Positions 21,847-61,361 of a stretch of 64,000 nt of DNA are shown here, piece after piece (within the stretch, counting starts at the first letter, position 1; each line of letters opens with the position of its first letter). The notes under the pieces are model-generated. The model was not told the origin of the DNA. It did not search any database and saw only the letters and a list, made by a program, of their open reading frames with translations. The stretch covers positions 1-64,000 of the IMG/VR virus record IMGVR_UViG_3300033121_002101. One strand, 5' to 3'. Made by a program: the position numbers and the translations under genes. This stretch comes from a virus (taxonomy: Duplodnaviria; Caudoviricetes).

Positions 21847-23211
21847 GTGCAAAACAAGAGAAAAAAAATACTTTTACTGAGTGATCATCCACTCGCTCCG
21901 TCTGGTGTAGGTACACAAGCAAAATACATGATCGAGGGCCTTTTAAGGACTCAAAAATATAGTTTTTTGTGTTTTGGTGGTGCTATAAAGCATCCAGATT
22001 ATAGAATACAGAATATTGCACCTGATGTTTTTGGTGATAAAAACTGGTTAATCATGCCAGTAGATGGACACGGCAATAAGGAAATTATGCGTCGTGTGTT
22101 AAGAGAAGAAAAGCCAGATGCTGTTGTAATTTTTACAGACCCAAGATTTTTTTATTGGGTTTGGGAAATGGAAGATGAAGTCAGGTCTGTTTGTCCATTG
22201 GTTTACTGGCATGTCTGGGACAATGATCCAGCTCCGGAATATAATATGAGTTTTTATAACTCAACAGATTTTATTTCAGCTCTTTCGCTGAAAACATACG
22301 GTCTTCTGCAAAAGCTTGGATATGATAAATCAAGATTCAATTACATTCCTCATTCTGAACCAACTGGGCTTTTTAAGCCTCTATCAGAAGATGATGTGAT
22401 GAGATTTAGATTAGAACAATATGGACCGCATGGTGATCCAAAGAGATTTATAGTTTTCTGGAACAATAGAAATGCTAGACGCAAACATCCAGGAGATGTC
22501 ATAAGAGCATTCAACTTATTTCTTGATATGGAAGGCGTGTCTAGAGATAGGTGTTCTTTAATGATGCACACAAAGCCAGACGATGCAGAGGGTCAAGATA
22601 TTGTTAAAATATCTAGAGCTCTTGGGATAGAGAAGAATATGATATTCTCTACAGATGTTGTAGAACCAGCTCAGTTAAACATGTTTTATAATGCAGCTGA
22701 TGTTACTATTAACATTGCTTCAAATGAAGGATTCGGTTTGACAACACTTGAGTCTATTTTTGCTGGTACACCAATCATAGCAAATTTCACAGGTGGCCTT
22801 CAGTTTCAGATAGGAGATTGGTGGGAGAAATTAACTGATTTTTCTTCACAAGAAGAAATGACTGCACTTGCGAAAAAGCAATGGAATAAATTTTCTGCTA
22901 AAGGTTTTGCTGTTGGTGAAAGTGGGTCAAATTTCTGGGGAGTACCTGCTTTTCCAGAAGTAAGATCTATGGTAGGTTCTCAAGCAACTCCATACATTTA
23001 TGATGACTGTGTAAGCAATGAACAAGTAGCAAGAGGATTACACAAGCTTTATAAAATTGGAAGAAAACAAAGAAAAGCATTGGGCAAAGCTGCAAGTGAA
23101 TGGGCACACAAAAAATTCTCAATGAGTGATATGATATCTTCTTGGGACTCAACGTTAACAAATGCAATTGATAATCACAAACCAAGAGAAATATCAATTG
23201 TTTCAATTTGA
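21847..23211 (+). CDS. Glycosyltransferase, GT4 (GT-B)
   Basis: LLSDHP..PSGVG, NNRNARRK, and EGFGLTTLES (EX7E). Confidence 0.92.
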   Translation: MQNKRKKILLLSDHPLAPSGVGTQAKYMIEGLLRTQKYSFLCFGGAIKHPDYRIQNIAPDVFGDKNWLIMPVDGHGNKEIMRRVLREEKPDAVVIFTDPRFFYWVWEMEDEVRSVCPLVYWHVWDNDPAPEYNMSFYNSTDFISALSLKTYGLLQKLGYDKSRFNYIPHSEPTGLFKPLSEDDVMRFRLEQYGPHGDPKRFIVFWNNRNARRKHPGDVIRAFNLFLDMEGVSRDRCSLMMHTKPDDAEGQDIVKISRALGIEKNMIFSTDVVEPAQLNMFYNAADVTINIASNEGFGLTTLESIFAGTPIIANFTGGLQFQIGDWWEKLTDFSSQEEMTALAKKQWNKFSAKGFAVGESGSNFWGVPAFPEVRSMVGSQATPYIYDDCVSNEQVARGLHKLYKIGRKQRKALGKAASEWAHKKFSMSDMISSWDSTLTNAIDNHKPREISIVSI

Positions 23212-23229
23212 AAGAAAGGGAAAAATATT

Positions 23230-24189
23230 TTGCCTGGAGTAGTAGTTTTTGGAGGAGCTGGTTTTATTGGCTCTCATATTGTCGATGAATTGATGGTTCA
23301 AGGCTCTCAAGTAACTGTATTTGATAATCTCTCAGAAGGAAAAAAAGAGAATATTCAAAGATGGCTTGGCCACAAGAATTTTAATTTTATACTTGGCGAT
23401 ATTAGAGATGAAAATCTTGTTAGAAGAGCTTGTGATGGCAAGTTTGGAGTACTGCACTTAGCAGCATGTTCAAGAATACAACCATCTATCACAGATCCGA
23501 TTATGGCTTTTTCGCAAAACTATATCGGCACAGCGAATGTGTTAGAAGCAGCTAGACAAGGTGGAGTAAAAAGAGTAGTTTACTCAGCAAGTTCGTCTGC
23601 ATATGGAAGAAAAAACGACAAACTGTGTGAAGATAAGACTGGACTCACTGAAGATTTAGAAACAGAGTGTTTAAATCCATATTCATTATCTAAAAAAGGT
23701 GGTGAAGAGCTGTGTGCTCTTTATAACAATTTTTATGATCTTTCAACATGCAGCTTAAGATATTTTAATGTTTATGGACCAAGACACCAAGAATCTGGTG
23801 CATATGCAACTGTAATAGCGATATTTAGAAAACAGAAGAGGCTATCACAGGATTTGACGATAGTTGGAGACGGAAATCAAAGAAGAGACTTCACTTTTGT
23901 TAGTGATGTTGTTAGAGCAAACATGCTTGCTCTTTACAATCATGAAGCAGTAGGAACATTTAATGTAGGGTCTGGAAAAAACTACAGTATAAATGAACTC
24001 GCTGAAATGATAGGTGGTCCAGCTGTTCACATTCCTCCACGTCTCGGCGAGGCAAATGTTACACTTTCTAACTGTGAGAAAGCAGATAGAGTACTTGGCT
24101 GGAAGCCTGCAGTTAGCCTTTCTCAAGGACTTGAGTTAATAGATCTTTACGAAAAGAAATATTCACCAAGTGGAATTATAACTCTGTGA
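23230..24189 (+). CDS. NAD-dependent nucleotide-sugar epimerase/dehydratase
   Basis: GGAGFIG, SASSSAYG, YSLSK, LRYFNVYGP and QRRDF. Confidence 0.93.
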   Translation: MPGVVVFGGAGFIGSHIVDELMVQGSQVTVFDNLSEGKKENIQRWLGHKNFNFILGDIRDENLVRRACDGKFGVLHLAACSRIQPSITDPIMAFSQNYIGTANVLEAARQGGVKRVVYSASSSAYGRKNDKLCEDKTGLTEDLETECLNPYSLSKKGGEELCALYNNFYDLSTCSLRYFNVYGPRHQESGAYATVIAIFRKQKRLSQDLTIVGDGNQRRDFTFVSDVVRANMLALYNHEAVGTFNVGSGKNYSINELAEMIGGPAVHIPPRLGEANVTLSNCEKADRVLGWKPAVSLSQGLELIDLYEKKYSPSGIITL

Positions 24190-27100
24190 TTGGAGATATT
24201 AGTGAGTAATAGAACTGTTCATTTTTTCGGACCTGTGTTAACAGCTTCAGGTTATGGCGTGCATGCAAGACAAGTGTTAAAAGCGCTTGTTGATTCTCAG
24301 TATGATGTGTATGTTGAAGCTGTCAGGTGGGGAGAGACTCCCCAAATAGACAATCGTGAAGTAGAATGGATAAAGCCATTAATAGAAAAATGGAAAGAAA
24401 ATCCAGGTGCGAAAAGAGACATTTCTGTACAAGTTACTATTCCAAATGAGTTTAAACGTTGTGCACGTCTTAACATCGGAGTAACTGCTGGAATAGAGGT
24501 AGATCGCGTATCACCATCATGGCTTCAAAAAGTCAATGATGAAGTTGATTTGTTAATAGTGCCATCTAAACATTCAGCTGAAACATTTAAAAACACAAAA
24601 TATAAGTCGAATGACGGTAATATACTTGCTTTAAATGTGCCAGTTATTGTTGTTCCAGAATCTGTTCCTGAAGAGTTTGTAGCAGATCGTTCATTAAAGT
24701 TTTCAAGACTTGATGATAGTTTGCCAAGTTCTAACTTGCTTGTTGTTGGTCTTGGCCTCGATAGAGCAATGGGAGAAGATAGAAAAAATATTTCGAATAC
24801 AATTTTTTGGTTTTTAAAAGAATTTGCTGGCAGAGAAGATGTTGGGCTTGTACTAAAAGTTAGTATGATAAACAATACTCTTCTTGATAGAGAAGCTATA
24901 ACAAACAGAATAAAATCTATCAGAGAAGCATCTGGTGTTGGAAAGTATCCGAAAATTACTTTGTTACACGGAATGATGTCAACACCTGAAATGTGCCTTT
25001 TATACAACGATAAAAGAATAAAGGGACTTATAAGTCTTACGCATGGTGAAGGTTTTGGTCTTCCGATGTTAGAAGCACTTGCATGTGGTTTGCCAGTAGC
25101 TGCGACATCGTGGTCTGGCCATCTTGACTTTCTTTTAAATGATTTTGTACCAATTCAGTATAAAGTTGAAAAGATACCGCAGTCATTTGTATGGCCTGGT
25201 GTCGTAGAACAAGATTCACAATGGGCAAGTGTAGATGAAACATCTGCAAGACTTGCAATGAAAACTTTAATAGAAGATGATGGAACACTTGCTGAGAAAG
25301 CAATGTCTGCATCTGAAAGAGTTCGTATTTCGAACTCACAATACTCTTTATGCAGTTCGTTTAAAGATATTCTTGCAGACGCTTGGAAACAAGTAGTAAG
25401 ATTGAGACCAGAAACGAGAGAAGAAACCGTAGCTGTTTTACGTGATAATTTTACAAGAAAGCAGCATGAAGAAACGTTAATATTCACAATGCCAATGTCT
25501 GGCGGTGATGTTTATCTGTCTACAGGTGTATTAAATGCTGTTTTGTCAAAAATTGAAAATGAAAATGGTGGAATTAGACCATATGTGTTTTTTGCAACAA
25601 AACAACAATACAGGTCTATTCTAGATGACAATACTGACATAGATGAAATTATTGAATGGCAGCCATGGATGCAGGATGTTGGCTTGCTTGAAGATACATT
25701 TACGCATGTATATACACCAAACCTCCCAATACAAATGGTTTGGTCAAATTGGGTTCATAGAGGAAAAGGTAGAAATATTTTAGATGAAATGGCTGTTCAT
25801 TGTAATTTACAGCCAAATCATTGGAACAAGCCAAGAATAAGTTTAGTTCCTATCAATGGAATTAAAGAAGATTGCTTTAATGTTGTAATTCATACAGGAA
25901 GTGGCCATGGCCAATGGGGTGCTAGAAGATACAACAATTGGCAAGATGTAGTTGACAACATAAAACGACTTTGGGATGAAAGCTTTTATGGAAAAAATGT
26001 AAAGCTTAGCATATATCAAGTCGGTTTACCAGATGAGCCAGAACTCAAAAATGTTATAGACATGAGAGGTAGAACGCCATTATACGGACAGCTTGCATAT
26101 GTTGTTTCAAAAGCAGACGTTGTTGTATCAATAGATTCTATTGTGATGCATTTAGCTGCACACAATAACATTATGCATGTATCACTTTTTGGTGGTTCAT
26201 ACTCAAAATCAACCGGTGCCGTTTCAAAAGCAGCAAAACAGTGCCTAATTGAAACAGATGACAGAAATGGTTGTGAAAGAGCATGTTATAAAAATGAGTG
26301 CTCAGTTGACAAAGAGAATCCATGTATCAATAACATTTCTCCAATAAATGTTGTCGAATCATTCTTTAATGTCGCAGCCACTAAAACAAAAGACACAGAT
26401 GTAGCTCAAAAAGTTAAAAGTGAATTTAAATTTAGAACTCCAACAATTTCAGGATACACACATACTTTCAATGCAAAAAAGAATGGATACCCATTTGTTC
26501 AATCAATAAAGAGTATGTTAGGTTTCTGTTCAGAAGTTGTTGTTGTTGACGGCGGTTCCACAGATGGAACAATCGATGATCTGAAAGAAATTAACGATCC
26601 AAAGCTCAAAGTAATCCATAATGCGTGGGATGATTCTGAGCCTGGTATGGATGGAATGCAAAAAGCATTTGGAAGAATGTTTTGTGATCCATCATCAGAA
26701 TTTCTTTGGCAGCAGGATTGTGATGAGATAGTTCATGAATCAGATTATGAAAAAATCATAAGCATTGCAAAAATGTTTCCGCCAAATGTAGATCTCATTC
26801 ACTTACCTGTTGTAGAGCTGTGGGGTGATGATAAACATTTTAGAACAGATAGACATGCATGGAAATGGCGTATGTCTAGAAACGTGTTTAATGTAACACA
26901 CGGAATAGTTGATCACGCAAGATTAACTGGTGATGATGGTAGAACATACGCAAAAGAAGGTATGTCAGATGGCTGCGAATATATCGATATGCTAACAGGA
27001 AAATATGTTCCACATGTTGGCTTCTGGAATGAGAGATTAGAAAAACTTAGAGTAAATGATCCTGTTTCATACGGAAAAGAAATGAATTTGTTATTCGACA

Positions 27101-27357
27101 AATTACCATGCGTGTGGCATTATTCATGGGCAGATATCCCAAGAAAAATAAGAAATTTTAGAGATTTTTGGGATACGTGCTGGTCAAATCTTTACAGAAG
27201 GCCTCTCAAAAAGAGATTCCCAGATGTTGTAACAGATGAAGATATAGTGAAGAAAGCAAATGAAGTTAAGCTTCGTGGTGGTGAACATCAACAATCTGTT
27301 GTAATTGAACTTGAAAAATGTGCGCCAGCAATTATGGACGGTTGGATAGGACAGTAA
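24190..27357 (+). CDS. Three-domain glycosyltransferase: GT4 + GT9 + GT2
   Basis: GT4: SGYGVHAR..EGFGLPMLEA. GT9: SGGDV..ST..IDSIVMHLAA..LFG with a Cys cluster. GT2: VVVDGGSTDGT..QDCDE. Confidence 0.88.
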   Translation: MEILVSNRTVHFFGPVLTASGYGVHARQVLKALVDSQYDVYVEAVRWGETPQIDNREVEWIKPLIEKWKENPGAKRDISVQVTIPNEFKRCARLNIGVTAGIEVDRVSPSWLQKVNDEVDLLIVPSKHSAETFKNTKYKSNDGNILALNVPVIVVPESVPEEFVADRSLKFSRLDDSLPSSNLLVVGLGLDRAMGEDRKNISNTIFWFLKEFAGREDVGLVLKVSMINNTLLDREAITNRIKSIREASGVGKYPKITLLHGMMSTPEMCLLYNDKRIKGLISLTHGEGFGLPMLEALACGLPVAATSWSGHLDFLLNDFVPIQYKVEKIPQSFVWPGVVEQDSQWASVDETSARLAMKTLIEDDGTLAEKAMSASERVRISNSQYSLCSSFKDILADAWKQVVRLRPETREETVAVLRDNFTRKQHEETLIFTMPMSGGDVYLSTGVLNAVLSKIENENGGIRPYVFFATKQQYRSILDDNTDIDEIIEWQPWMQDVGLLEDTFTHVYTPNLPIQMVWSNWVHRGKGRNILDEMAVHCNLQPNHWNKPRISLVPINGIKEDCFNVVIHTGSGHGQWGARRYNNWQDVVDNIKRLWDESFYGKNVKLSIYQVGLPDEPELKNVIDMRGRTPLYGQLAYVVSKADVVVSIDSIVMHLAAHNNIMHVSLFGGSYSKSTGAVSKAAKQCLIETDDRNGCERACYKNECSVDKENPCINNISPINVVESFFNVAATKTKDTDVAQKVKSEFKFRTPTISGYTHTFNAKKNGYPFVQSIKSMLGFCSEVVVVDGGSTDGTIDDLKEINDPKLKVIHNAWDDSEPGMDGMQKAFGRMFCDPSSEFLWQQDCDEIVHESDYEKIISIAKMFPPNVDLIHLPVVELWGDDKHFRTDRHAWKWRMSRNVFNVTHGIVDHARLTGDDGRTYAKEGMSDGCEYIDMLTGKYVPHVGFWNERLEKLRVNDPVSYGKEMNLLFDKLPCVWHYSWADIPRKIRNFRDFWDTCWSNLYRRPLKKRFPDVVTDEDIVKKANEVKLRGGEHQQSVVIELEKCAPAIMDGWIGQ

Positions 27358-27360
27358 ATT

Positions 27361-28119
27361 ATGAAAGCAGCTGACATATTCATGACAACGCTTCCAGGTA
27401 GAAGCGATCTTACGTATAGATCTATTATGTCTTTGTGCGAAAACACAAAAATGTCAGATGTTAGATTTTCTGTTTATATTGACGGCCTAGGTCATTCAAA
27501 AGAAGTAATTTCTTTAATAGAAAACGTAGCAGATCATATTATAATTTCTAAAGAAAGACAAGGCTTACCACAAGCTATTAACAGAACGCTTTCTTACATA
27601 TCTGCAACAAATGATTACTTTTCATCAGTTGGAGCAGCAGATAATTCAGAAGTCTCACCGTTTATTTGCATGGTCCAAGATGATCTTGAATATACAAATT
27701 CATGGCTGAATACTATAATTTCTCGTTTTACAATATACGAGAAGAAATTTAATCTAAAATTCGCATCTGGTGTAGAATGTATAGAGCACCCAATATCTGC
27801 AGACATCGGTAATGGTTGCATTCTAAAAAAATACATAAGAGCTGCAAATATGTTTGCCAGAAGAGAGTATTGGCTGTCAATGTTTCCAATACCACGTTTT
27901 GACCCAGAAACAAGATCTATAAGGGCATTCCCAAGTAATGGAATTGGATCGGGTGTTGATTGGTGGTTTATAAGAAACCATCAGAATTCTGTAGTAAAAA
28001 CGAATTCTGAATGTCTTGTTATTCCTGGCCTTTTGAGACACATTGGGTATGCAAATTCAACATGGCTTGATAGAGAATTGCCAGAATCTGACAATGATAA
28101 GAAAGCGATGTCAAAGTGA
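27361..28119 (+). CDS. GT2-like glycosyltransferase
   Basis: R..LT...I.SL, G...AIN, MVQDD (DxD-like) and HIG. Confidence 0.75.
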   Translation: MKAADIFMTTLPGRSDLTYRSIMSLCENTKMSDVRFSVYIDGLGHSKEVISLIENVADHIIISKERQGLPQAINRTLSYISATNDYFSSVGAADNSEVSPFICMVQDDLEYTNSWLNTIISRFTIYEKKFNLKFASGVECIEHPISADIGNGCILKKYIRAANMFARREYWLSMFPIPRFDPETRSIRAFPSNGIGSGVDWWFIRNHQNSVVKTNSECLVIPGLLRHIGYANSTWLDRELPESDNDKKAMSK

Positions 28120-29162
28120 AAAGAGTGCATACAGTATCATTTACGGGTATTTCAGCGCCAGGCGGCGTACCTAGATTTAATAGGTATTTGCATAAAATAC
28201 TTTCAAAAGAAGGTTTTGATGTACAGCATTGGTGTTGGGATGACGTTAAAAGCTTATCCGCATCTGTAAATGCTATGTTATATGATGAATATAGTATAGC
28301 ATTAGAAACAGGTTCAATTCTCGCAAGAATGAATCTTGTGAAAAAAGATGACATAATAATTGGTGATGGCTTTTGGTGTCATGCATTCACGATGCTTGGC
28401 TTCAAGAATGTAATATCTGTTGCTCATGGAATATGGGGACATGTTACAAAAACAGATATAGATAAAGGTGTTAAGATTGAAAATCACGCGCTTGATTGCA
28501 TGCAAAGAGATCACAGATTAATACACAATAAAAGAAAATTGCCAATTGTAGCCGTTTCTCAGTTTATTCATGATGAAATGAATAAGCAGAATGGAATAGA
28601 GTCTATTGTAATAAACAATGCAATAGATGAATCTGAAATAAAAAAAGTTGATGAAGATGCTGTTTCTACATTTGAATTTTATGTTTTACATGGGATAAAT
28701 GACATATTAAACAAAAACAAAGGCTGGGATCACATCAGTTGTCTTATGCAGAGCAAAAGTAATATTGCATCAAGCATAATGTCATTAGATAAACTGTTTC
28801 AAATTTATAAACATAGAGGGTGTGAAACAAAAATGGAAGCTATGCAGCTTGCAAGTGTTGCAATAGCACCAAGTGGCTTTGAGGGAAATTCATACTTCAT
28901 GCTTGAATTGTTGATGTGTGGTGTTCCAGTTATATGTTATGATGTTGGCTTACCATATGAAATCAAACAAAAAGGTTTAGAAGAAAAAGTTGGCATAATT
29001 TTAGATAGAAATGAAAGATCACCAGAGTTAACAGTTGATGCATTTGATAGATTTTTTGATTCGAAAGATTTATCAAAAATAGACACAAGAAGTGTTGCAA
29101 ATGAACTTGCTAGTTTTGATAAATTTAAAGATTCGTGGATTTCGCTTGTAAAAAGCTTATGA
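28116..29162 (+). CDS. GT4-like glycosyltransferase
   Basis: GGVPRF, AVSQF, INNAID and PSGFEGNSYFMLE. Confidence 0.82.
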   Translation: MKRVHTVSFTGISAPGGVPRFNRYLHKILSKEGFDVQHWCWDDVKSLSASVNAMLYDEYSIALETGSILARMNLVKKDDIIIGDGFWCHAFTMLGFKNVISVAHGIWGHVTKTDIDKGVKIENHALDCMQRDHRLIHNKRKLPIVAVSQFIHDEMNKQNGIESIVINNAIDESEIKKVDEDAVSTFEFYVLHGINDILNKNKGWDHISCLMQSKSNIASSIMSLDKLFQIYKHRGCETKMEAMQLASVAIAPSGFEGNSYFMLELLMCGVPVICYDVGLPYEIKQKGLEEKVGIILDRNERSPELTVDAFDRFFDSKDLSKIDTRSVANELASFDKFKDSWISLVKSL

Positions 29163-29821
29163 TAATAAAAGAGCCTTTAAGAATTAGAGTTGATGATTTC
29201 CCATGCACAAAACTAAATGAATGGGAATCCGGCCAGCATTCAATTGAAAAATTTAAAGAATTTGACTCTATAATACCAGTTAAATATCTTCTTGGTGTCA
29301 TACCGATTAATTGCGAAAAAGTAGGACATTGGCCAGTATCTGAAAAAGCCGTGTATGGACTGCACGGTTTTTGGCACGATGAATCAAGAATAAATGAATT
29401 TAAAGGTTATGGTCAAAATGACATAGCTTCATATCTTATTTCAGGCATTGAAAAGATTGAAAAAAATACTAGACAAAAACCGTCTGTGTATATGCCACCG
29501 CATAATGATATAGATTTTCAAACGCTAAATGCTTGTAAATCTATTGGCATCAATACAATAACATGTGGGCCAGGAACTCATTTTACTGTATACCCTCTTT
29601 GTAATCATCTTTCAATAAAACCTCTCACAAGTAGACCTCCTGTTATGTACGGAAGAACAGATGAGATACTACAGATACTAGACAGTTCTACGGGAGAGTT
29701 TGACCCATATGAATTTGGTGGTATAATCACGTTACACTGGACATGGGAAAACAATATAGGTTTTTCTTATCTAAAAGAATTCATGAATAGAATTTCAGAT
29801 AGGTTGGTTGATTTTGAATAA
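29135..29821 (+). CDS. Polysaccharide deacetylase-like (DUF2334/NodB fold)
   Basis: RVDD, LGVIP, LHGFWH, YMPPHN and TLHW. Confidence 0.8.
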   Translation: MDFACKKLMIIKEPLRIRVDDFPCTKLNEWESGQHSIEKFKEFDSIIPVKYLLGVIPINCEKVGHWPVSEKAVYGLHGFWHDESRINEFKGYGQNDIASYLISGIEKIEKNTRQKPSVYMPPHNDIDFQTLNACKSIGINTITCGPGTHFTVYPLCNHLSIKPLTSRPPVMYGRTDEILQILDSSTGEFDPYEFGGIITLHWTWENNIGFSYLKEFMNRISDRLVDFE

Positions 29822-53608: not shown

Positions 53609-53609
53609 A

Positions 53610-55181
53610 TTGTCTGATAAAAGTGATTTACAATCAATATGCGACTGCATGTTGTCACCACCATCTCTCGATCCTGGCAATCCCAGAGTGATTGCTTATT
53701 TTTCAAGAATAGATACAGCTGCGTCAATTTTTGGAATTGAACTTGCTAGTTCTTCATTTGGATTCTCAGCTAATATTATAAAAAGAAATCAATGCTTAGA
53801 AAAAATAAGAGAATGCATTGACATGTATGAAAACATATCAGCTGCTGGCTTGTTTATGAATGAAAACCCATTCACAAGAATAGATGCAATAAACTCTTCA
53901 AGAAGAGTTGTAGATGATATTGGCAATAGCAATGAAATTTTTTCATCTACAATGAAAAATATCCGTACTCTTCTTGACTTAATCACCAGAAGAGATGCTG
54001 GTTCTTTTGACATATCAGGCGCAAGGCCACAAGTAAGTGCGCTTGATATATCATTTGGCGGAATGACAGGAATACCATCATCTATTTTTAATGCAGATGA
54101 TTTAAAGCGCCAACAATCTCTTAACGCTCTAAGAGAACTTGACTTTTCAAAAAGAAAACCAAAAGTTTTATTTGTCTCTGAAAGAGAAGGAGAGACATAT
54201 GACATAGTGGTCGGCTGGCTAAAGATGAGAGATGCATCATCTTACATGTTAACTCTTTCAGATAGAGTTTTTCAGCATACGATTCACGTTACAATACAAT
54301 CACAGAATTTAGAAAACGTTGATGAAACAACTAAATCATTTTACAAGTCTGTGATAGCTCCAGTTATTGGTAATTCAATAAAAGAAAAAGATATTGCATT
54401 ATACAGATTTTCAAATGTGTTAAGAGATAGTGTGTACTCATTTTCAATTTTGCCAATGCAGAATATAAACTCTGGAAGAAATAATCTGTTTAGAATGACT
54501 CTTAATAGAGTTGTCATGACAGATAGACAAATGAGCAATATTTTATCTGCAATACAACTCGCTGGTTTTTCAAATACAGATGAAATCACTCCATATCCGT
54601 TTATATCAAAAGAACTGTATGGAACAGATAAATACGGATGGCTTTTAGCAGGCGTCAATTTGTTATCTGCATTTGACAAAAATGAGCAAGCTGCAAAAGT
54701 AAGATCATATTCGTACATTGGTGCTAAATGGTCACAAATATCGCAGCTTATTTTGTCTGGTGAATTTTATGCTCCATCAAATGTATCTTCGTTTGAACAG
54801 GCTTTGAATAATTCATTTTCAACATATGGCTTATCATCTACAATGATAGAAATTTTAGATAAGTGCGGAATGTTGCTATTTTTTGATGATAGAGAAGGAT
54901 TTGATACAACAATAGTATCAACTGGCAATTCAAATGCTATAAAAGAAACAGGTCTTGCAAGAGCAATAATTTCAGCAATAGATCCAGTTAGTGCAACTGT
55001 CACACCTAGTGCAATATACGCAGCCACTGAAATTAATTCAGGCAATTGGCGTACTTTATTTGCATCACAAGTACTAACACCAAGACTTGATAATTCAAGT
55101 GATGAAATAGATATTATTTCATATGAAGGTGTTACAAGGTTTTTAAACGTTATGATTGATGCATCAAGAAGGGCTTCATAA
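53610..55181 (+). CDS. Hypothetical protein, probably structural
   Basis: Long ORF within the structural operon. Confidence 0.6.
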   Translation: MSDKSDLQSICDCMLSPPSLDPGNPRVIAYFSRIDTAASIFGIELASSSFGFSANIIKRNQCLEKIRECIDMYENISAAGLFMNENPFTRIDAINSSRRVVDDIGNSNEIFSSTMKNIRTLLDLITRRDAGSFDISGARPQVSALDISFGGMTGIPSSIFNADDLKRQQSLNALRELDFSKRKPKVLFVSEREGETYDIVVGWLKMRDASSYMLTLSDRVFQHTIHVTIQSQNLENVDETTKSFYKSVIAPVIGNSIKEKDIALYRFSNVLRDSVYSFSILPMQNINSGRNNLFRMTLNRVVMTDRQMSNILSAIQLAGFSNTDEITPYPFISKELYGTDKYGWLLAGVNLLSAFDKNEQAAKVRSYSYIGAKWSQISQLILSGEFYAPSNVSSFEQALNNSFSTYGLSSTMIEILDKCGMLLFFDDREGFDTTIVSTGNSNAIKETGLARAIISAIDPVSATVTPSAIYAATEINSGNWRTLFASQVLTPRLDNSSDEIDIISYEGVTRFLNVMIDASRRAS

Positions 55182-57817
55182 TGCCATCTAGACAAATCAT
55201 AAGAGATAGTATAACAACTATTCTTACGCCTACACAGAATGACAGCAGAGATCTACCCTCTACAACAACAGAAGTAACAACTGTTCTTTCACCAACTGAA
55301 AACAGCGGTCATGGGTCGTCTACAACTGAAATTGATTCTGTTCTTGTTGGGTATGTTACAGGTTCATACTCAAAAAGTGTTTTTTTTGAAACGTTATTTG
55401 ATAGCTTTAATTTAAACTGTAAGCCAGTCTATAAAAAGTATACAGATGATGAATCAAAAAATGAACCAGAAAACAGTTTATCACTAGAACTAAGTGATTA
55501 TCCTCGCTATATTGAAATTACATGGAACACATGTCCAGCAATAGAGTATGCTCTTCAAGAACAAGCTCAGCAGACATTTGATACATCTGGCATTTTTACA
55601 GTTCCGCAGATAAATGATTTTATGAACCCAGGCGCGGGTTCGATGAAATTAACAACTCAATCTAAAAATAAAAATTTGCCTGAAGAGTTTGATGAAAGTA
55701 AAGTGCTTTCGTCAAATAAGATGGTAGGTATAAAAGTTTCAGACATAATCTCTAATTTAAAAATAGCAGATAGAACTGGCATTATTATTGATGACTTAGA
55801 GACAAGGGCAAAAGTACCACAAACACAGCAAAATAGTTTTGAATCTTTCTTAGACAAAAGAAGTAATGAGCTAGAGCAAACCAACATTGTAATAACACCA
55901 AAAGCTGCACTTGAATTGTTATCAGCGCCATCATTCCCAAATGATTCAAGAGAGCATGTAGAATCATCACTTGTTGTATCTGCATTTTCAACTGAGATAG
56001 GTTTAGCAGATTCTCTTGAAGATCAAATAGATCAGACAACCGTTGACCCTCCATACATTGAAACAAGTGCAATAATGCCGTCATTTTCATATGCTGGCTA
56101 TTTGATACAAAGACAAAAACTATCACGTGATGGTATTTTTGTAGATGATAAAGTTTTTAAAATAGTTGGAAGAAATTCCAATGTTTATAGAGATGTGTCT
56201 GTTGCATACGGTACAGTATACAGATACAGAATATCATCAATAGCAAAATGGGTTCATAATCAAGAATTGAGATTAGATGGTTTTGTCGATGTAGAACAAA
56301 CTACGCAAAACGGGCAGATGGTAATAAGGACAGTGAGATCTTCATGGAGCCCATATGTAAATGCTGTTGTTTTAGATACAGATTTACCAACACCGCCAAA
56401 AGAGTTGTCTATTATCATTGATAAAAAAAGAAAAGGCGCAATTTTATTTTGGAAAGTTCCAGACAATCAACAATCAGACATTATATTCTTCAATTTATAC
56501 AGAAGAAAAGTGTCAGAATTTGGACATTTTAGTGAATGGGAACAAATATCTAGAAATATAAAACCATCAAATGGATCATTTTTCAATAAATTGGAAGAAA
56601 ATGATAGTGGTAAAGTCATATATGCGATGACGTCAGTGTCTATACACGGACAAGAATCATCATTGTCTGAACAGATTTCATGTCAATCGTCTCTAATATC
56701 AAGAGATACAAACATTAATTTAGAGTCTTTTCCTGGTGTTTCGATTGAAAATCACGGAGCACTTTCTGTAAACCCACCACTTAAATCACTTGAAAAAGTA
56801 GAATTTTTAAATAGATTTTCATTAAAACCAAGAACTGGAACTACGAAAACAGTTGGTTCTGACAGGTCTGTTATTGTAAGAATAATGTCTACACAAACAG
56901 GTGAAAATATAGACATACCAGTTAATTTGCTTTATAAAAATTCTACTGTGTCTTTGCCCGCTTTTATAAAACGAGTGCAAGCAGATAGAAGAAATTTGCA
57001 AGTTCAATTTCCGCAAGACAATATATCTCAGCTTGTTCAATCACCAACTGCACAAACAACTACTGCAACAGCAGACAATACAATAATATTTCCAGACACA
57101 ATGTCTTCATTTTTATTATCAACTGGAAAAACAGTTGATGCTTTGTGGATAGGAAATGAAGCAACTGCATCTCTTACAGACAGAACTGGAAATGGTAATA
57201 ACTTAGCGCCAGTTGGTTCACCTATATACCAGTTTTTAGGACCTGGAAATCATTATGGTGTAAAATATGAAGCAGCAAACAACTTAGCTCACAGAGCAGA
57301 CGTGGGATTGATTGCTAGCGGGTCTTTCATATATGGTGCTGTGATAAGCATTGCCAGTGATATTGACTACTTACAAACATTAGTTGGTAGGTCTGCAACA
57401 GCTTTTGATCCATGTTGTATTGCTTATTTGTTTACATATATATCTCCAAGATGGCCTGTTTTATTAATTCGAGATGCAGCCGCAGGTCAGTTGATTGTTG
57501 CTATGAACACCGCAATCGATTGGATGAATTTATATCCAGGAGAATGGCTTGTTCAAATACAAGTAGATCGTGAAACAGTTCCGCCTGTCGCAAGAATGCG
57601 AGTATCTTCAAATAATTCTTTAATTGATGAAAAATCAGGGTCTATGACAGGGATTGGAAGTTTAAGTGGGTCAACTGGTGCATTTGGCTTCGGAGCGTCA
57701 CTTGGAAACAATACTGTCGGAGGAAGTGCATTCTATTATGGATATTATATGACAGGATCACAGTGCTGTGGACCGAATGTGCTAAGTTCAATTGCATCAA
57801 GTTTAGGATATGAGTGA
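55181..57817 (+). CDS. FN3-containing structural protein with C-terminal LamG/ConA-like module
   Basis: YRDVSVAYGTVYRYRI, SSWS and PTPP FN3 motifs, then a Q/T linker, then LW..NE....LTD.TGNGNNL. Confidence 0.65.
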   Translation: MPSRQIIRDSITTILTPTQNDSRDLPSTTTEVTTVLSPTENSGHGSSTTEIDSVLVGYVTGSYSKSVFFETLFDSFNLNCKPVYKKYTDDESKNEPENSLSLELSDYPRYIEITWNTCPAIEYALQEQAQQTFDTSGIFTVPQINDFMNPGAGSMKLTTQSKNKNLPEEFDESKVLSSNKMVGIKVSDIISNLKIADRTGIIIDDLETRAKVPQTQQNSFESFLDKRSNELEQTNIVITPKAALELLSAPSFPNDSREHVESSLVVSAFSTEIGLADSLEDQIDQTTVDPPYIETSAIMPSFSYAGYLIQRQKLSRDGIFVDDKVFKIVGRNSNVYRDVSVAYGTVYRYRISSIAKWVHNQELRLDGFVDVEQTTQNGQMVIRTVRSSWSPYVNAVVLDTDLPTPPKELSIIIDKKRKGAILFWKVPDNQQSDIIFFNLYRRKVSEFGHFSEWEQISRNIKPSNGSFFNKLEENDSGKVIYAMTSVSIHGQESSLSEQISCQSSLISRDTNINLESFPGVSIENHGALSVNPPLKSLEKVEFLNRFSLKPRTGTTKTVGSDRSVIVRIMSTQTGENIDIPVNLLYKNSTVSLPAFIKRVQADRRNLQVQFPQDNISQLVQSPTAQTTTATADNTIIFPDTMSSFLLSTGKTVDALWIGNEATASLTDRTGNGNNLAPVGSPIYQFLGPGNHYGVKYEAANNLAHRADVGLIASGSFIYGAVISIASDIDYLQTLVGRSATAFDPCCIAYLFTYISPRWPVLLIRDAAAGQLIVAMNTAIDWMNLYPGEWLVQIQVDRETVPPVARMRVSSNNSLIDEKSGSMTGIGSLSGSTGAFGFGASLGNNTVGGSAFYYGYYMTGSQCCGPNVLSSIASSLGYE

Positions 57818-58591: not shown

Positions 58592-59587
58592 ATGTCATTT
58601 AAACTTTTTGATCCAGAAAACGATATAGTTACGTTGCGCAGTTCTGTAAATGAAGTGCTAGACGTAACTGGTTCTATTATGTTGACAGATGCAAATGTTA
58701 AGTTTTTTAAAAACATTGCATCATCTTCTGTAGATCCAGACCTTGGAGGCTATTGGGAATCTGTTTTTGACAGCTCACCAACATCGTCACTCAGTACAGC
58801 ACTGTTTGATGTGACTTATGGAGTTGCAACAGGATCTTCATACAATGTTTTAAGCTCAAACAGCTCTTCACAAAGCCAAAAAGTAAAAGTTTATCGTGAA
58901 ATGGCTGGAGTTTTGCTTGGCAATAAAGATTCTCTGTTCACAATCGGCGGGACAGAAAGAAAAGAAGCTCTCTTTATCTCAGTGAAAAGAGATATTTTCA
59001 AAGATGAGATTAAAAAAGGTGCAACTTCAATAACGATTAATTCAGCTGCTCCAACACAGTATTCAGCAAGTGATGCTGGTGCAAACAGCACATTCAAACA
59101 AAGTATTGGTGGAGATTATGCGCCACTAAAGTACAACGGAACAGGATCTGAAGTTGGACAAGTTTGGTATGATGCGGGTATCATTATACTGCACCCAGAT
59201 ACAGCATATGGAGCTATTACAATTTGGTCTGGAAGCAAAACGCTGATAAATGTTCAGAGTTCTGGAAATATCAACCAAGTTGTAGATGGTTTCAGAAGAA
59301 AAACAGAAAAAGTAGTTTTCCACAACCAGTTAAACATTTATTCTACTTCTTATTATGTTAGAGCAAGGAATAGAGAATTCAATTATTCTTCAAACCCAAC
59401 GTTTACAGATGACAACATGAGAATTAGAGTAACATCTGGAAGCAATGAGCAGCTTACAAGAACGTACATAACATCAATCGCTCTTTGTGATCCAAATGGA
59501 AATATTCTTGCAATTGCAAAAACAAACAAACCAGTCGCAAAAGGTCCAGAAAACGAAGTCACATTAAGAGTTCGTTTGGATTTCTGA
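58592..59587 (+). CDS. Structural protein (DUF3751 C-half-like terminus)
   Basis: EFNYSSNPTF..TYITSIALCDPNGNILAIAKTNKPVAK...VRLDF. Confidence 0.7.
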   Translation: MSFKLFDPENDIVTLRSSVNEVLDVTGSIMLTDANVKFFKNIASSSVDPDLGGYWESVFDSSPTSSLSTALFDVTYGVATGSSYNVLSSNSSSQSQKVKVYREMAGVLLGNKDSLFTIGGTERKEALFISVKRDIFKDEIKKGATSITINSAAPTQYSASDAGANSTFKQSIGGDYAPLKYNGTGSEVGQVWYDAGIIILHPDTAYGAITIWSGSKTLINVQSSGNINQVVDGFRRKTEKVVFHNQLNIYSTSYYVRARNREFNYSSNPTFTDDNMRIRVTSGSNEQLTRTYITSIALCDPNGNILAIAKTNKPVAKGPENEVTLRVRLDF

Positions 59588-59609
59588 GGTCATCTTGTGA
59601 GGAACACGG

Positions 59610-61361
59610 ATGTCCGCAATAAAAAAATTAGATAAAACAGATGTATTAAACACTGTACTCGTACCATCATACGGAATTGAAATAGTTTCTGGAACTGCTG
59701 GGTGGACTGGTGGAGATGTTTCTGGGTCTATTTCTTTATTCGGCGGAATTAGAATACCAGGTAGGTCTACTTGTATAAGACCTACATCTGGTTCTTTTAC
59801 AACAGCTTCAATATCATATTCTTCAGTCAGATTATCTGATATTACTGAAAGTGAAACAGAAAAAGGAAATAGAACTTGGCGTACAGTAGACAGCCTTTAT
59901 AGATACTATTCTTCTTTTAATCCACTATATTCTACATCTAGTTACGATTATCAGTGTTTGTTCTTTAAAAACAAAAGCAATAATATTGCAATATGTAATG
60001 ATGCAATATCAATGCAGCCGTGGAGAAGCATAACTTCTTCGTTGTGTTTAGAAGCTTGGGTTAAACCGTTTATGTCTTCAAGCGAAGATAACAGCGGTAG
60101 AACAATCTTAAGCAGAACAGGTTTGTATTGGTTTGGTGTGACCGGTTCGGCAGGCGACATGAGAGTTACATTCTCATCGTCATTGGGTTTCTATACTTCT
60201 AGTTTAACGTTAAGTGTTGGAAAATGGTCACACGTAGCTGTTTCTGTTGGATCAAACACAGGCAGCATATATGTCGGTTTAAAAGAAACAAATAGATTTA
60301 CATACGCAGCAGCTGGCTTGGCATCATCAAATACTGCAAGTTTCAGCCCAGCGTTCTGCGTAGGCAATGTGTACACAGGATCAATTGTATCACTCGGCGG
60401 AAAAAATTCATATGAGTCACCAGATACAGTGTCTTCTGGTAGTGGAAGATCATTTCATGGGCTTATTCATGAAGTTAGAGAATGGAAAATAGCAAGAACT
60501 TGGCAGCAAATATCATCATCACATGATAAAAGAATACAATATGGTGATACTGGTTATTTGCCAATTTACATGCCAATGCTTGATGCACATAAAAGCTCAT
60601 CTGCTGGTTATGCTGTTGGCAGTGGTTCAAATTGTCCAACAATAAGTGGAAGTGCAAATGATATAGCATTTAACATAAAAGGTTATACAAACAATCCAAG
60701 TTGGTTTCCAAACGGAAATCCAAATTTTCATCCAGATAAAACAATTGCAACAGAAGCTACAAATTATGCAAGACCGCTGTTAAAACTATTGAATATACCA
60801 AGAGCAATGTATGGATCATCAATAGCGACAGGGTCGTTTACATTGACATGCAAATCATTTTCTGGTGATAATGCTGAAATCATAAGAGTAATAAAAGATG
60901 ATGGTAAAGGCCAACTGTACATGCACAGTTGCATGTCAGCGTCATTCTACGAGTCACAGTGGAGTGAGAATGTACCATGGAATAGGGTAGGCAATATATT
61001 TTATTCTGAGGGCGTGGTCGTCATCTCTGATGACTCTGTATTGGATTTGTGCCAAGATGTTGCATCTTTGTCTAAATTCCCAACAACACAAATGACAGTA
61101 TCATTTAATGGCGTGTCGCCAGTTCCTGTTTCTGTTGTATCATGTCATATTCAGGGAGACGAATGTAATTTATCTACAAATGATTCATTTTCAGAAACAG
61201 ACTCATCTGGTATTGCAAGACCTGTTTTAAATGAAACATATATTTCTTCTGTAGTGTTGTATGATAAACTGTTAAGACCAGTTGGCATTGCAAAACTAGC
61301 AATGCCGCTGAGAAAAAGAAAAAATGACAGTATAAACATACGTCTCAGAAGGGATTTCTAA
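59610..61361 (+). CDS. LamG-containing structural protein, C-terminus paralogous to 58592..59587
   Basis: LEAWVKP, WSHVAVS, FHGLIHEVREW, VGNIFY and TYISSVVLYD...IAKLAMPLRK...RRDF. Confidence 0.75.
   Translation: MSAIKKLDKTDVLNTVLVPSYGIEIVSGTAGWTGGDVSGSISLFGGIRIPGRSTCIRPTSGSFTTASISYSSVRLSDITESETEKGNRTWRTVDSLYRYYSSFNPLYSTSSYDYQCLFFKNKSNNIAICNDAISMQPWRSITSSLCLEAWVKPFMSSSEDNSGRTILSRTGLYWFGVTGSAGDMRVTFSSSLGFYTSSLTLSVGKWSHVAVSVGSNTGSIYVGLKETNRFTYAAAGLASSNTASFSPAFCVGNVYTGSIVSLGGKNSYESPDTVSSGSGRSFHGLIHEVREWKIARTWQQISSSHDKRIQYGDTGYLPIYMPMLDAHKSSSAGYAVGSGSNCPTISGSANDIAFNIKGYTNNPSWFPNGNPNFHPDKTIATEATNYARPLLKLLNIPRAMYGSSIATGSFTLTCKSFSGDNAEIIRVIKDDGKGQLYMHSCMSASFYESQWSENVPWNRVGNIFYSEGVVVISDDSVLDLCQDVASLSKFPTTQMTVSFNGVSPVPVSVVSCHIQGDECNLSTNDSFSETDSSGIARPVLNETYISSVVLYDKLLRPVGIAKLAMPLRKRKNDSINIRLRRDF

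What the first reader, a model, noticed from the sequence alone, without database searches (positions are those of the whole stretch)
21847..61361. Candidate phage-encoded virion O-glycosylation system: glycosyltransferase island plus a [S/T]-[G/A]-S sequon concentrated in specific baseplate modules
Seen (manual counts of [S/T][G/A]S): 13 in 454 aa (44411), 12 in 583 aa (59610), about 11 in 960 aa (45772, mostly the N-terminal LamG part), about 10 in 645 aa (48658) and 6 in 331 aa (58592). Controls: 0 in the DinG helicase (536 aa) and 0 in rIIA (732 aa). There are also 0 in the Ser-rich structural-operon ORF 53610 (523 aa, many S/T-G/A-x but none ending in S) and only 2 in Ser-rich 51209 (799 aa), so Ser content alone does not explain it. 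Just upstream lies an 18-gene island with about 10 glycosyltransferase domains, methyltransferases, a deacetylase and sugar-donor enzymes, and no visible flippase, polymerase or lipid-carrier transferase. Established: mycobacteriophages glycosylate virion proteins with their own GTs, and Aah/TibC heptosylate Ser residues of autotransporters from ADP-heptose. Inference: the phage builds a complex, methylated, heptose-containing glycan in the cytoplasm on a short hydroxyl sequon of exposed virion proteins, forming a glycan shield or receptor-modulating coat.
Basis: partly seen in the sequence, partly recalled or inferred. Interest (0 to 1): 0.88.

Follow-up and report, generated by a model that had tools for sequence, protein, structure and literature searches.

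The report
Candidate sugar-attachment tag on phage tails
The outer tail, baseplate and sheath proteins of this uncultured 196-kb phage and well over a hundred relatives carry the ordered tripeptide Ser/Thr-Gly/Ala-Ser four to six times more often than chance, always alongside a phage-encoded sugar-transferase island, so it may mark where the phage coats its own particle with sugars, although no chemistry shows this yet.

Summary
Observation confirmed. The excess is order-specific, survives shuffles that preserve local composition, and occurs in proteins with almost no detectable paralogy. Over 121 related loci it is 5.8x in the g44411 homologue, 4.3x in downstream structural ORFs and 0.66x in upstream enzymes. 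It is absent from T4, SP-15 and a Vibrio phage, and weak in a cyanophage. The 18-gene island holds 10 glycosyltransferase (GT) domains, and the near-complete genome has no large multi-pass membrane protein.

Interpretation partly supported. The heptose, GT9 and methyltransferase genes are lineage-specific. Equally motif-rich relatives, including two complete genomes, have no GT9, so an Aah/TibC-like heptosylation of the motif is not the general mechanism. What is universal is an abutting pair of soluble GT-B enzymes (g21847 and the N-terminus of g24190) beside a PD-(D/E)XK nuclease.

Published LC-MS of DNA from a cultured relative (Flavobacterium phage immuto) reported no glycosylated bases, which weakens the DNA rival. 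No GT-less relative was found, so the link rests on a single clade, and a structural beta-turn habit remains a live rival. Nothing shows glycosylation directly. The scan has noted the same motif on other phage genomes. Two cultured relatives (immuto, Microcystis phage Mel-JY01) make it testable.

The parts
20895..21827 (+). PD-(D/E)XK nuclease; conserved left neighbour of the GT pair across the super-clade
   Evidence: Pfam PF12705, E=3.7e-15. tblastn finds homologues beside the GT pair in distant IMG/VR relatives, Mel-JY01 and immuto.
21847..23211 (+). Universally conserved retaining GT4 glycosyltransferase (GT-B fold); candidate acceptor-priming enzyme
   Evidence: Pfam Glycos_transf_1 and GT4-conflict. 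It is 35-41% identical over its full length in distant relatives and immuto and matches at E about 1e-200 in two complete distant genomes. The AF2 model has pLDDT 81.5, and its nearest folds are MshA, chlorovirus NY-2A B736L, SPS, BshA and WaaG.
23230..24189 (+). NDP-sugar epimerase/dehydratase (GalE-like best hit)
   Evidence: Pfam Epimerase, 1.2e-54. NCBIfam best hit is galE, below its cut-off.
24190..27357 (+). 1055-aa three-domain GT: the N-terminal GT-B (about residues 1-400) is the second universally conserved GT, followed by GT9 and GT2 domains
   Evidence: Pfam Glycos_transf_1 261-314, Glyco_transf_9 627-692 and Glycos_transf_2 759-861. The N-terminal ~400 aa is conserved at 27-37% identity and the gene abuts or overlaps the g21847 homologue in every lineage.
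27361..28119 (+). GT2-like protein (no Pfam hit)
   Evidence: Protein atlas feature score 0.97 to GT2 clusters. A lead only.
28116..29162 (+). GT4 glycosyltransferase
   Evidence: Pfam Glycos_transf_1 / Glyco_trans_1_4.
29135..29821 (+). DUF2334 (polysaccharide-deacetylase-like), weak
   Evidence: Pfam PF10096, 24.2 bits, below the cut-off of 26.
29861..30925 (+). Glyco_trans_1_2 glycosyltransferase
   Evidence: Pfam PF13524, 4.5e-15.
30906..31667 (+). SAM-dependent methyltransferase
   Evidence: Pfam Methyltransf_23, 3.9e-18.
31649..32557 (+). GT9 (heptosyltransferase-family) protein; lineage-specific
   Evidence: Pfam PF01075, 2.2e-12. Its only PDB sequence match is WaaF 1psw. GT9 is absent from 17 of 21 related records.
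32533..33519 (+). HldD-like NDP-heptose epimerase candidate
   Evidence: NCBIfam best hit heptose_epim, 116 bits, below the cut-off of 274.6.
33512..33916 (+). WbuC-like cupin
   Evidence: Pfam Cupin_2 and NCBIfam cupin_WbuC, both weak.
33921..34805 (+). Glyco_trans_1_2 glycosyltransferase
   Evidence: Pfam PF13524, 1.2e-9.
34802..35356 (+). Methyltransferase (weak)
   Evidence: Pfam Methyltransf_11, 3e-4.
35353..36411 (+). GT4-like GT-B glycosyltransferase (no Pfam hit)
   Evidence: Atlas feature score 0.99 and structure TM 0.83-0.85 to GT4 clusters. Conserved upstream of the baseplate genes in relatives at 39% identity or more.
36408..37328 (+). NDP-sugar dehydrogenase (UDP-glucose dehydrogenase-like, short form)
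   Evidence: Pfam UDPG_MGDP_dh and its N-terminal domain. NCBIfam NDP-sugDHase, 165 bits, below its cut-off.
37325..37876 (+). HAD/NT5C-type phosphatase (possible GmhB analogue)
   Evidence: Pfam NT5C, 4e-11.
37863..38321 (+). HldE domain II-like sugar-1-phosphate adenylyltransferase
   Evidence: NCBIfam rfaE_dom_II, 2.4e-32, 111.7 bits, below the cut-off of 181.5.
38318..39211 (+). HldE domain I-like sugar kinase (PfkB)
   Evidence: NCBIfam rfaE_dom_I, 2e-34, 119 bits, below the cut-off of 345.
42179..42589 (+). gp25-like baseplate wedge protein
   Evidence: PHROG 261 and 43.
42597..44414 (+). gp6-like baseplate wedge protein (3 motifs, not enriched)
   Evidence: PHROG 219 and 6. 3 observed against 1.47 expected.
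44411..45775 (+). Motif-rich peripheral baseplate protein: CBM-like jelly roll plus Ig/FN3-like beta-sandwiches
   Evidence: 13 against 1.47 expected. 118 homologues have a median of 10 against 1.4, and SGS298 is kept in 117 of 118. AF2 pLDDT 80.7; nearest folds are CBMs and Ig-like arrays.
45772..48654 (+). Motif-rich LamG-domain baseplate/fibre protein
   Evidence: 11 against 2.24 expected. Pfam Laminin_G_3, residues 145-297.
48658..50595 (+). Motif-rich structural protein
   Evidence: 10 against 2.08 expected.
51209..55181 (+). Two Ser-rich structural-module ORFs without motif excess (internal controls)
   Evidence: 2 against 1.92 and 0 against 1.48 expected.
55181..57817 (+). Moderately motif-rich structural protein
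   Evidence: 6 against 2.28 expected, p=0.03.
58592..59587 (+). Motif-rich structural protein
   Evidence: 6 against 1.14 expected.
59610..61361 (+). Motif-rich LamG-domain protein
   Evidence: 12 against 2.86 expected. Pfam Laminin_G_3, residues 141-302.

Best explanation
The phage makes a glycan in the host cytoplasm with its own soluble enzymes and attaches it to hydroxyl residues of outward-facing virion proteins (peripheral baseplate, fibres, outer sheath domains, probably the capsid insertion domain) before or during assembly. The ordered tripeptide [S/T]-[G/A]-[S/T], usually between hydrophobic strand residues, marks or forms the attachment sites. The priming step would be carried out by the universally conserved, abutting pair of GT-B enzymes (g21847 and the N-terminal domain of g24190). 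The rest of the island (GT9, GT2, further GT4s, methyltransferases, HldE/HldD-like sugar activation) is a lineage-specific elaboration that gives each phage lineage its own glycan, much as O-antigen loci differ. Shown here: the motif statistics, its distribution, the island's content and the conservation pattern. Inferred: that the acceptor is protein, that the motif is the site, and that the GT pair primes.
For: (1) The motif excess is strong, order-specific and not explained by composition or local composition. It occurs in proteins with almost no detectable paralogy. (2) It is confined to exterior virion proteins. Genome-wide the excess lies in baseplate and fibre proteins, the sheath (8 against 1.8) and, marginally, the MCP (4 against 1.4), with none in terminase or rIIA and about the expected number in portal, tape measure and other enzymes. 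All 8 sheath sites lie outside the conserved C-terminal core, and in three phages they cluster in the region aligned to T4 gp18's outer domain I. (3) It is clade-wide with positional turnover. Over 121 loci the ratios are 5.8x, 4.3x and 0.66x, yet only about 40% of sites in distant homologues fall on shared alignment columns. Density is therefore maintained beyond what fixed structural positions require. (4) Outgroups without multi-GT clusters lack the excess: T4 0.3-1.0, SP-15 0.7, Vibrio 6E35.1a 1.2, S-RIM50 1.6. The cultured relatives that have islands show it: Mel-JY01 baseplate 4.6, immuto 2.0 with one protein at 13 against 1.8. (5) The g21847-type GT is found in every evaluable relative, including two 100%-complete genomes. 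(6) There is no large multi-pass membrane protein and the island enzymes look soluble. (7) Virion DNA of immuto, which carries the nuclease-GT-GT triad, gave only dA, dC, dT and formyl-preQ1 by LC-UV-MS (bioRxiv 10.1101/2023.04.13.536721). (8) Precedent: mycobacteriophage virions are O-glycosylated by phage GTs (Freeman 2023, confirmed here only through citing papers). Che8 capsid and tail-tube proteins end in -TGS and -DGS, and the likely Corndog capsid protein ends in -VGS.
Against: No result shows a sugar on any protein. The motif-GT co-occurrence lies within one super-clade, so it amounts to one evolutionary event, and no GT-less relative was found to break the confound. The motif is flanked by hydrophobic residues and sits mostly at turns and strand edges in the model. 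Several sites, with their Gly, are nearly invariant. All of this is what a structural beta-turn element would look like. The GTs resemble enzymes that act on small molecules, lipids or LPS, not known protein O-GTs. Two Ser-rich proteins in the same module, and Mel-JY01's giant fibre proteins, lack the motif. Solvent exposure of the hydroxyls could not be computed because the tools do not give model coordinates.
Confidence: 0.4

Rival explanations
1. The motif is a lineage-specific structural habit: a Ser/Thr-capped Gly/Ala turn or strand-edge element in the accessory beta-sandwich domains of this clade. It has nothing to do with the GT island, which instead remodels a host envelope glycan (LPS core, O-antigen or exopolysaccharide) during infection using the host's lipid carrier, flippase and ligase.
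For: The motif has hydrophobic flanks on both sides and sits at loops and strand ends in the AF2 model. Some sites have an invariant Gly. GT9 and HldE/HldD-like enzymes are hallmark LPS-core enzymes, and the GT9 protein matches WaaF. The fold neighbours of the conserved GT include WaaG and PimB'. Co-occurrence with GTs is confounded by shared ancestry.
Against: Beta-rich baseplate, fibre and sheath proteins of T4, SP-15 and a Vibrio phage show no excess, so this is not a general beta-turn preference. The excess appears across proteins with almost no detectable paralogy and its density is kept despite about 60% positional turnover. The [S/T]-A-S sites lie inside or at the ends of strands, not in Gly turns. 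The phage encodes no initiating transferase, flippase, polymerase or ligase. The conserved GT pair persists in hosts as different as Flavobacterium and Microcystis while the LPS-type genes do not.
Confidence: 0.3
2. The motif is functional but is not a glycosylation site. It could be a surface array of paired hydroxyls used for binding host polysaccharide, or a site for another modification. The GT island serves an unrelated purpose.
For: In a strand, the first and third residues point to the same face, so S-x-S presents paired hydroxyls. g44411 has a CBM-like domain and two of the proteins are LamG/ConA-like lectin folds. Hydroxyls are conserved at both flanks through S/T exchange.
Against: The motif also occurs in the sheath and capsid, which are not receptor-binding proteins. 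Nothing points to a particular alternative modification enzyme. This reading does not explain the universal presence of the GT pair.
Confidence: 0.15
3. The island decorates the phage's DNA (glycosylated hydroxymethyl-pyrimidine), and the motif is unrelated.
For: A phage module of a HAD-like/kinase bifunctional enzyme, a cytidylyltransferase and a GT-B was shown to put one or two heptoses on 5hmC (bioRxiv 10.1101/2023.12.21.572611), and the window has a comparable enzyme set at 37325-39211. The genome encodes a thymidylate-synthase-fold enzyme and an RGP-family mutase. The GT pair sits next to a nuclease at the edge of the replication module.
Against: The candidate DNA-modification genes form their own cluster about 85 kb away, which by an earlier scan note (not confirmed here: Pfam finds nothing in that ORF) includes a T4-BGT-like GT. 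Ten GT domains plus methyltransferases far exceed the mono- to trisaccharides known on DNA. Immuto, which has the conserved triad and a five-GT island, showed canonical dA, dC and dT plus a deazaguanine and no reported sugar adduct.
Confidence: 0.08

Closest known systems
Mycobacteriophage virion O-glycosylation (Che8, Corndog, Myrna; Freeman et al. 2023, Cell Host Microbe; not held here, seen only through citing papers, and otherwise from my memory of the abstract)
   Same: Phage-encoded cytoplasmic GTs would modify exposed virion proteins. Che8 capsid and major tail proteins end in -TGS and -DGS, and the likely Corndog capsid protein ends in -VGS, so a small residue followed by Ser also sits at the reported attachment region there.
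   Different: In those phages there are a few GTs and the sites are at the C-termini of capsid and tail-tube proteins of siphoviruses infecting Actinobacteria. Here there is an 18-gene island with 10 GT domains, dozens of internal dispersed sites mainly in baseplate, fibre and sheath proteins of large myoviruses, and no chemistry. Homology between the GTs was not tested.
Chlorovirus and giant-virus capsid glycosylation (PBCV-1 multi-domain GTs and methyltransferases; my own knowledge)
   Same: Soluble, virus-encoded, multi-domain GTs with methyltransferases that would build a complex methylated glycan on virion proteins in the cytoplasm at non-canonical sites. The conserved GT4's fifth-best fold match is chlorovirus NY-2A B736L, and g35353's structural neighbours include Nucleocytoviricota GT/methyltransferase fusions.
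   Different: Those are eukaryotic viruses with N-linked glycans on the major capsid protein. No orthology is shown.
Aah/TibC autotransporter heptosyltransferases (BAHT family)
   Same: GT9-like enzymes that use ADP-heptose to modify Ser in repeated short motifs in the cytoplasm.
   Different: The window's GT9 matches WaaF only, not TibC. GT9 is missing from most motif-rich relatives.
GtfA/GtfB O-GlcNAc transferase of serine-rich repeat adhesins
   Same: A cytoplasmic GT4 enzyme working with a second GT-B-fold partner on Ser in S-x-S-type repeats. Here two GT-B genes abut or overlap in every lineage.
   Different: GtfA is not among the sequence hits or the listed top fold hits, and there is no DUF1975. 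The acceptors here are folded beta-sandwich proteins, not disordered repeats. Binding between the two GTs was not tested.
Phage DNA sugar hypermodification gene clusters (Pyle et al., bioRxiv 10.1101/2023.12.21.572611)
   Same: A HAD-like enzyme, a kinase and a nucleotidyltransferase supplying an activated heptose to a phage GT-B.
   Different: The acceptor there is 5hmC in DNA and the glycans are mono- to trisaccharides. Here the TS-fold gene lies in a separate cluster, and a relative's DNA showed no reported sugar adducts.

Membership tests
Phage virion glycosylation by phage-encoded GTs (mycobacteriophage type) | Phage genome encodes glycosyltransferases | tested here: met
   10 GT domains in 8 proteins.
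Phage virion glycosylation by phage-encoded GTs (mycobacteriophage type) | O-linked glycans demonstrably attached to virion proteins | not testable with these tools
   Needs glycoprotein staining or mass spectrometry of virions. Cultured relatives exist: immuto and Mel-JY01.
Phage virion glycosylation by phage-encoded GTs (mycobacteriophage type) | Acceptor region contains a small residue followed by Ser | tested here: inconclusive
   Che8 capsid and tail proteins end in -TGS and -DGS, and the likely Corndog capsid protein in -VGS. The site assignment in those phages comes from memory of the abstract, and the sites here are internal.
BAHT (Aah/TibC) protein heptosyltransferases | Sequence relationship to TibC/Aah rather than to LPS heptosyltransferases | tested here: not met
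   The only PDB match at E <= 0.01 is WaaF 1psw.
BAHT (Aah/TibC) protein heptosyltransferases | Enzyme co-occurs with its acceptor motif | tested here: not met
   GT9 is present in 4 of 21 related records. It is absent from complete genomes G016 and G018 and from immuto, which keep the motif excess.
ADP-L-glycero-D-manno-heptose pathway (GmhA, HldE, GmhB, HldD) | HldE kinase and adenylyltransferase domains at equivalog level | tested here: inconclusive
   These are the best-scoring families, but at 119 bits against a 345 cut-off and 112 against 181.5.
ADP-L-glycero-D-manno-heptose pathway (GmhA, HldE, GmhB, HldD) | GmhA sedoheptulose-7-phosphate isomerase (SIS domain) | tested here: not met
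   No PF13580 match in the genome. The host enzyme would be needed, or the sugar is a different one.
Wzx/Wzy- or ABC-transporter-dependent surface polysaccharide locus | Initiating phosphoglycosyl transferase, flippase or ABC transporter, polymerase or ligase (multi-pass membrane proteins) | tested here: not met
   No protein longer than 130 aa has four or more hydrophobic segments in the 96%-complete genome, and the island proteins look soluble. Use of the host's machinery is not excluded.
GtfA/GtfB two-component O-GlcNAc transferase | GT4 catalytic subunit with a DUF1975 insertion, related to GtfA | tested here: not met
   No DUF1975 in Pfam. GtfA is absent from the sequence hits and from the listed top fold hits.
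GtfA/GtfB two-component O-GlcNAc transferase | Second GT-B-fold partner that forms a complex with the catalytic subunit | not tested
   The two GT-B genes abut or overlap in all lineages. No complex prediction was run.
Phage DNA glycosylation gene cluster | GT clustered with a hydroxymethylase/TET and acting on DNA | tested here: inconclusive
   The TS-fold and RGP genes are about 85 kb from the island. DNA of relative immuto showed no reported sugar adducts. This phage's own DNA has not been examined.

The most novel reading that the evidence does not exclude
A very widespread super-clade of 160-200-kb myoviruses (at least 586 IMG/VR relatives of one baseplate protein, infecting hosts as different as Flavobacterium and Microcystis) coats its own tail, baseplate and capsid surface with a phage-made glycan. 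A conserved two-enzyme GT-B primer attaches it at a short internal hydroxyl-small-hydroxyl tag, and a hypervariable gene island then diversifies it, which would amount to a virion serotype system analogous to bacterial O-antigens.
Probability: 0.3. Interest if true: 0.85.

Novelty: new variant of a known kind. Interest (0 to 1): 0.66.

Why it matters
Glycosylated phage particles are so far documented for mycobacteriophages. If the tag and the conserved GT pair do what is proposed, virion glycosylation would be a common trait of abundant environmental phages of Gram-negative bacteria and cyanobacteria. It would come with a sequence tag that predicts modified sites, a minimal enzyme pair to test, and a variable island that may shape adsorption, particle stability, aggregation or recognition by hosts and grazers. 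Two cultured relatives make the idea directly testable. If it is wrong, the result is still a striking clade-specific sequence signature of exterior virion proteins that needs a structural explanation.

Tried and rejected
(1) GT-less comparator. Two scans of viral contigs, one re-centred on the most distant, low-motif homologue, gave about 160 loci, and none had lost the motif excess. Whole-record GT searches found GT1-family genes in 14 of 15 records. The exception, G004, has the contig cut where the island should lie, so it is uninformative. An earlier scan note that a relative without the island has lost the motif could not be reproduced here.

(2) Cultured close relatives. megablast of the structural module and tblastn of g44411 against 50,697 phage records found nothing. 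Only the sheath led to Mel-JY01 and immuto.

(3) Co-expression. Intergenic k-mer enrichment, T4-type late-promoter words and the sigma-70/terminator scan were all at chance level, so timing could not be inferred.

(4) Known protein O-GTs. Sequence and fold searches of g21847, g28116, g31649 and g24190 gave only generic GT4, GT9 and GT2 relatives.

(5) Explanations rejected by test: paralogy, local clustering of small residues and Ser content.

(6) The primary Freeman et al. 2023 paper is not held.

(7) Solvent accessibility of motif hydroxyls could not be computed, because only the secondary-structure string of the models is returned.

(8) No complex prediction was run for the GT pair, and no binding is claimed.

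Full report
WHAT THE WINDOW IS. The window is the first 64 kb of a 196,531-bp IMG/VR viral contig estimated 96% complete. It is a large myovirus at about 33% GC. Reading along it: rIIA, a DinG-like helicase and a PD-(D/E)XK nuclease; then an 18-gene sugar island (21847-39211); then a baseplate module starting with gp25-like (42179) and gp6-like (42597) genes; then primase and SbcCD. Beyond the window lie terminase, portal, MCP, sheath and a 1402-aa fibre.

There are none in DinG, rIIA or ORF 53610, and 2 in ORF 51209. Because the motif was chosen after looking at the data, I scanned all tripeptides. TGS, SGS, SGT and TAS are the four most enriched words in the five proteins, whereas TGT, TAT, SNS, SDS and SPS are not enriched. 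The order matters: hydroxyl-small-hydroxyl is 4.3x enriched, while permutations of the same residue classes range from 0.4x to 2.1x. Shuffling within blocks of 6-20 residues, which keeps local composition, yields 12-13 against 52 observed, with a maximum of 26 in 1000 shuffles. The five proteins share almost no detectable paralogy, so the counts are independent. The exception lies outside the window: the 1402-aa fibre's 38 motifs sit at a fixed period in tandem domains. Genome-wide the excess is confined to exterior virion proteins, including the sheath (8 against 1.8) and, marginally, the MCP (4 against 1.4).

THE ISLAND. Pfam finds GT4, a GT-B+GT9+GT2 fusion of 1055 aa, a second GT4, two Glyco_trans_1_2 proteins and a GT9. 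It also finds two methyltransferases (one weak), a sub-threshold DUF2334 hit, two epimerases, a cupin, an NDP-sugar dehydrogenase, a HAD/NT5C phosphatase, a cytidylyltransferase-like protein and a PfkB kinase. The heptose assignment is only partly supported. HldE-I, HldE-II and HldD are the best NCBIfam families for three of the proteins, but all score far below the equivalog cut-offs, and no GmhA is present. No protein longer than 130 aa in the whole genome has four or more hydrophobic segments, and the island proteins look soluble. The phage therefore brings no flippase, polymerase, ligase or initiating lipid-carrier transferase.

RELATIVES. The most enriched protein, g44411, belongs to a large family of conserved length: 234 hits, with a median of 10 motifs against 1.4 expected. 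Some sites are almost invariant, for example SGS298 in 117 of 118. Two viral-contig scans gave about 160 loci, with at least 586 relatives in the marine branch alone. Over 121 distinct loci the homologue is 5.8x enriched, downstream structural ORFs 4.3x, and upstream non-structural ORFs 0.66x. Only about 40% of motif sites in distant homologues fall on columns shared with close relatives. Density is therefore maintained through positional turnover, which is more than fixed structural positions would require.

OUTGROUPS. T4 baseplate, fibre, sheath and capsid proteins show no excess: gp7 0 against 1.0, gp10 0 against 1.0, gp34 2 against 2.7, gp18 1 against 1.4. Structural regions of SP-15 (0.72), Vibrio phage 6E35.1a (1.16) and cyanophage S-RIM50 (1.62) are near expectation. 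Among these outgroups, the Pfam GT1 and GT2 models find only a single GT1 gene, in SP-15. A general beta-protein preference therefore does not explain the excess.

Two cultured phages turned out to be distant members of the same super-clade. Microcystis phage Mel-JY01 has a 36%-identical full-length sheath, a syntenic baseplate module with 61 motifs against 13.4 expected, and GTs. Flavobacterium phage immuto has a region ratio of 2.0, one protein at 13 against 1.8, and a GT island directly after a PD-(D/E)XK nuclease, as in this window.

WHAT IS CONSERVED IN THE ISLAND. tblastn of all island proteins against the islands of seven distant relatives, one close relative, Mel-JY01 and immuto shows a conserved triad. 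It consists of the nuclease, the GT4 g21847 (35-41% identity over its full length, better conserved than the baseplate protein) and a GT-B equal to the first ~400 residues of g24190. The two GT genes abut or overlap everywhere. The g21847-type GT is present at E about 1e-200 in two 100%-complete distant genomes. Everything else is lineage-specific. In particular, GT9 is found in only 4 of 21 related records and is absent from those complete genomes and from immuto, all of which keep the motif excess. If an enzyme reads the motif, it is the conserved GT pair, and the heptose and methyl chemistry is a lineage-specific decoration.

The conserved GT folds as a generic retaining GT4 (pLDDT 81.5). 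Its nearest structures are MshA, chlorovirus NY-2A B736L, sucrose-phosphate synthase, BshA and WaaG, and no known protein O-GT appears among the listed top hits. The GT9 protein matches WaaF, not TibC.

STRUCTURE OF AN ACCEPTOR CANDIDATE. The g44411 model (pLDDT 80.7) is all-beta: a CBM-like jelly roll followed by Ig/FN3-like sandwiches. Of its 13 motifs, nine have the central residue in coil (loops, a hairpin turn, strand ends, and two low-confidence loops), three lie in strands and one at a helix start. Across all enriched proteins the motif is flanked by hydrophobic residues at -2, -1 and +1. This fits a turn or strand-edge element, and it equally fits exposed sites on folded domains. Solvent accessibility could not be computed. 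In the sheath, all eight sites lie outside the conserved C-terminal core, and in three phages they cluster in the region aligned to T4 gp18's outward domain I.

THE DNA RIVAL. A preprint shows that a phage module of a HAD-like/kinase enzyme, a cytidylyltransferase and a GT-B puts heptose on 5hmC, and the window has a comparable enzyme set. The genome also has a thymidylate-synthase-fold gene and an RGP-family mutase, but these lie in a separate cluster near 124-133 kb, as an earlier scan note said. Against this rival, LC-UV-MS of immuto virion DNA gave canonical dA, dC and dT plus formyl-preQ1 in place of dG, with no sugar adduct reported. Ten GT domains also far exceed what is known for DNA glycans.

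PRECEDENT. Mycobacteriophage virion glycosylation is established (Freeman 2023). The paper itself is not held, so I saw it only through citing papers. From my memory of its abstract, the O-glycans sit at the C-termini of the capsid and tail-tube subunits. In the sequences, Che8's capsid and major tail proteins end in -TGS and -DGS; they are the only two of 22 long ORFs ending in -GS. Corndog's likely capsid and tail-tube proteins end in -VGS and -GDS. This is a resemblance, not a test.

VERDICT. A cytoplasmic acceptor is favoured, DNA is disfavoured, and virion proteins are the obvious candidates. However, no chemistry exists, the co-occurrence is one evolutionary event, a structural habit remains plausible, and the specific Aah/TibC-like heptosylation mechanism is contradicted. 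The scan has recorded the same [S/T]-G-S excess on several other phage genomes, so this is a recurring feature of a large phage group and not a peculiarity of this contig.

Noticed in passing
window:1-1050: The first ~1,030 bases are 61-75% GC against about 30% for the rest of the contig, with a sharp boundary near 1000-1050. The ORFs there have no Pfam match. This is probably a chimeric contig end or foreign DNA joined during assembly.
   Followed up: partly
L003:11557-15765 (genome 91557-95765): The 1402-aa fibre-like protein is built of tandem domains. Its 38 motifs recur at spacings of 54-15-19-43 residues (period about 131 aa), then 43/45 residues.
   Followed up: partly
L005:8648-9553 and L005:15337-16479 (genome 124648-125553, 131337-132479): A thymidylate-synthase-fold enzyme and an RGP/UDP-arabinopyranose-mutase-family protein flank the large 127866-131336 ORF. 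This is a separate candidate DNA sugar-hypermodification cluster, as an earlier scan note proposed.
   Followed up: partly
L111:6025-6933 (Mel-JY01 about 84.0-84.9 kb): In Microcystis phage Mel-JY01 the homologue of the conserved GT4 is an ORF of only 302 aa that aligns to residues 164-419 of g21847. The N-terminal domain may be split off or lost.
   Followed up: no
L112:5051-5872 and L112:7613-8422; L113:20547-21779: The capsid and major tail proteins of mycobacteriophage Che8 end in -TGS and -DGS, and the likely capsid protein of Corndog ends in -VGS. So a small residue followed by Ser sits at the termini reported to carry the glycans.
   Followed up: partly
L101:7965-11884 (immuto 47964-51883): Flavobacterium phage immuto has the same local order as this window (PD-(D/E)XK nuclease, GT4, second GT-B). 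The island then continues with aminotransferases, an acetyltransferase-like 'pilin glycosylation protein' and an epimerase instead of heptose genes.
   Followed up: partly
window:40464-40832 (minus strand): A 122-aa minus-strand ORF with several hydrophobic segments overlaps the plus-strand ORF 40483-40812. One of the two is probably spurious.
   Followed up: no
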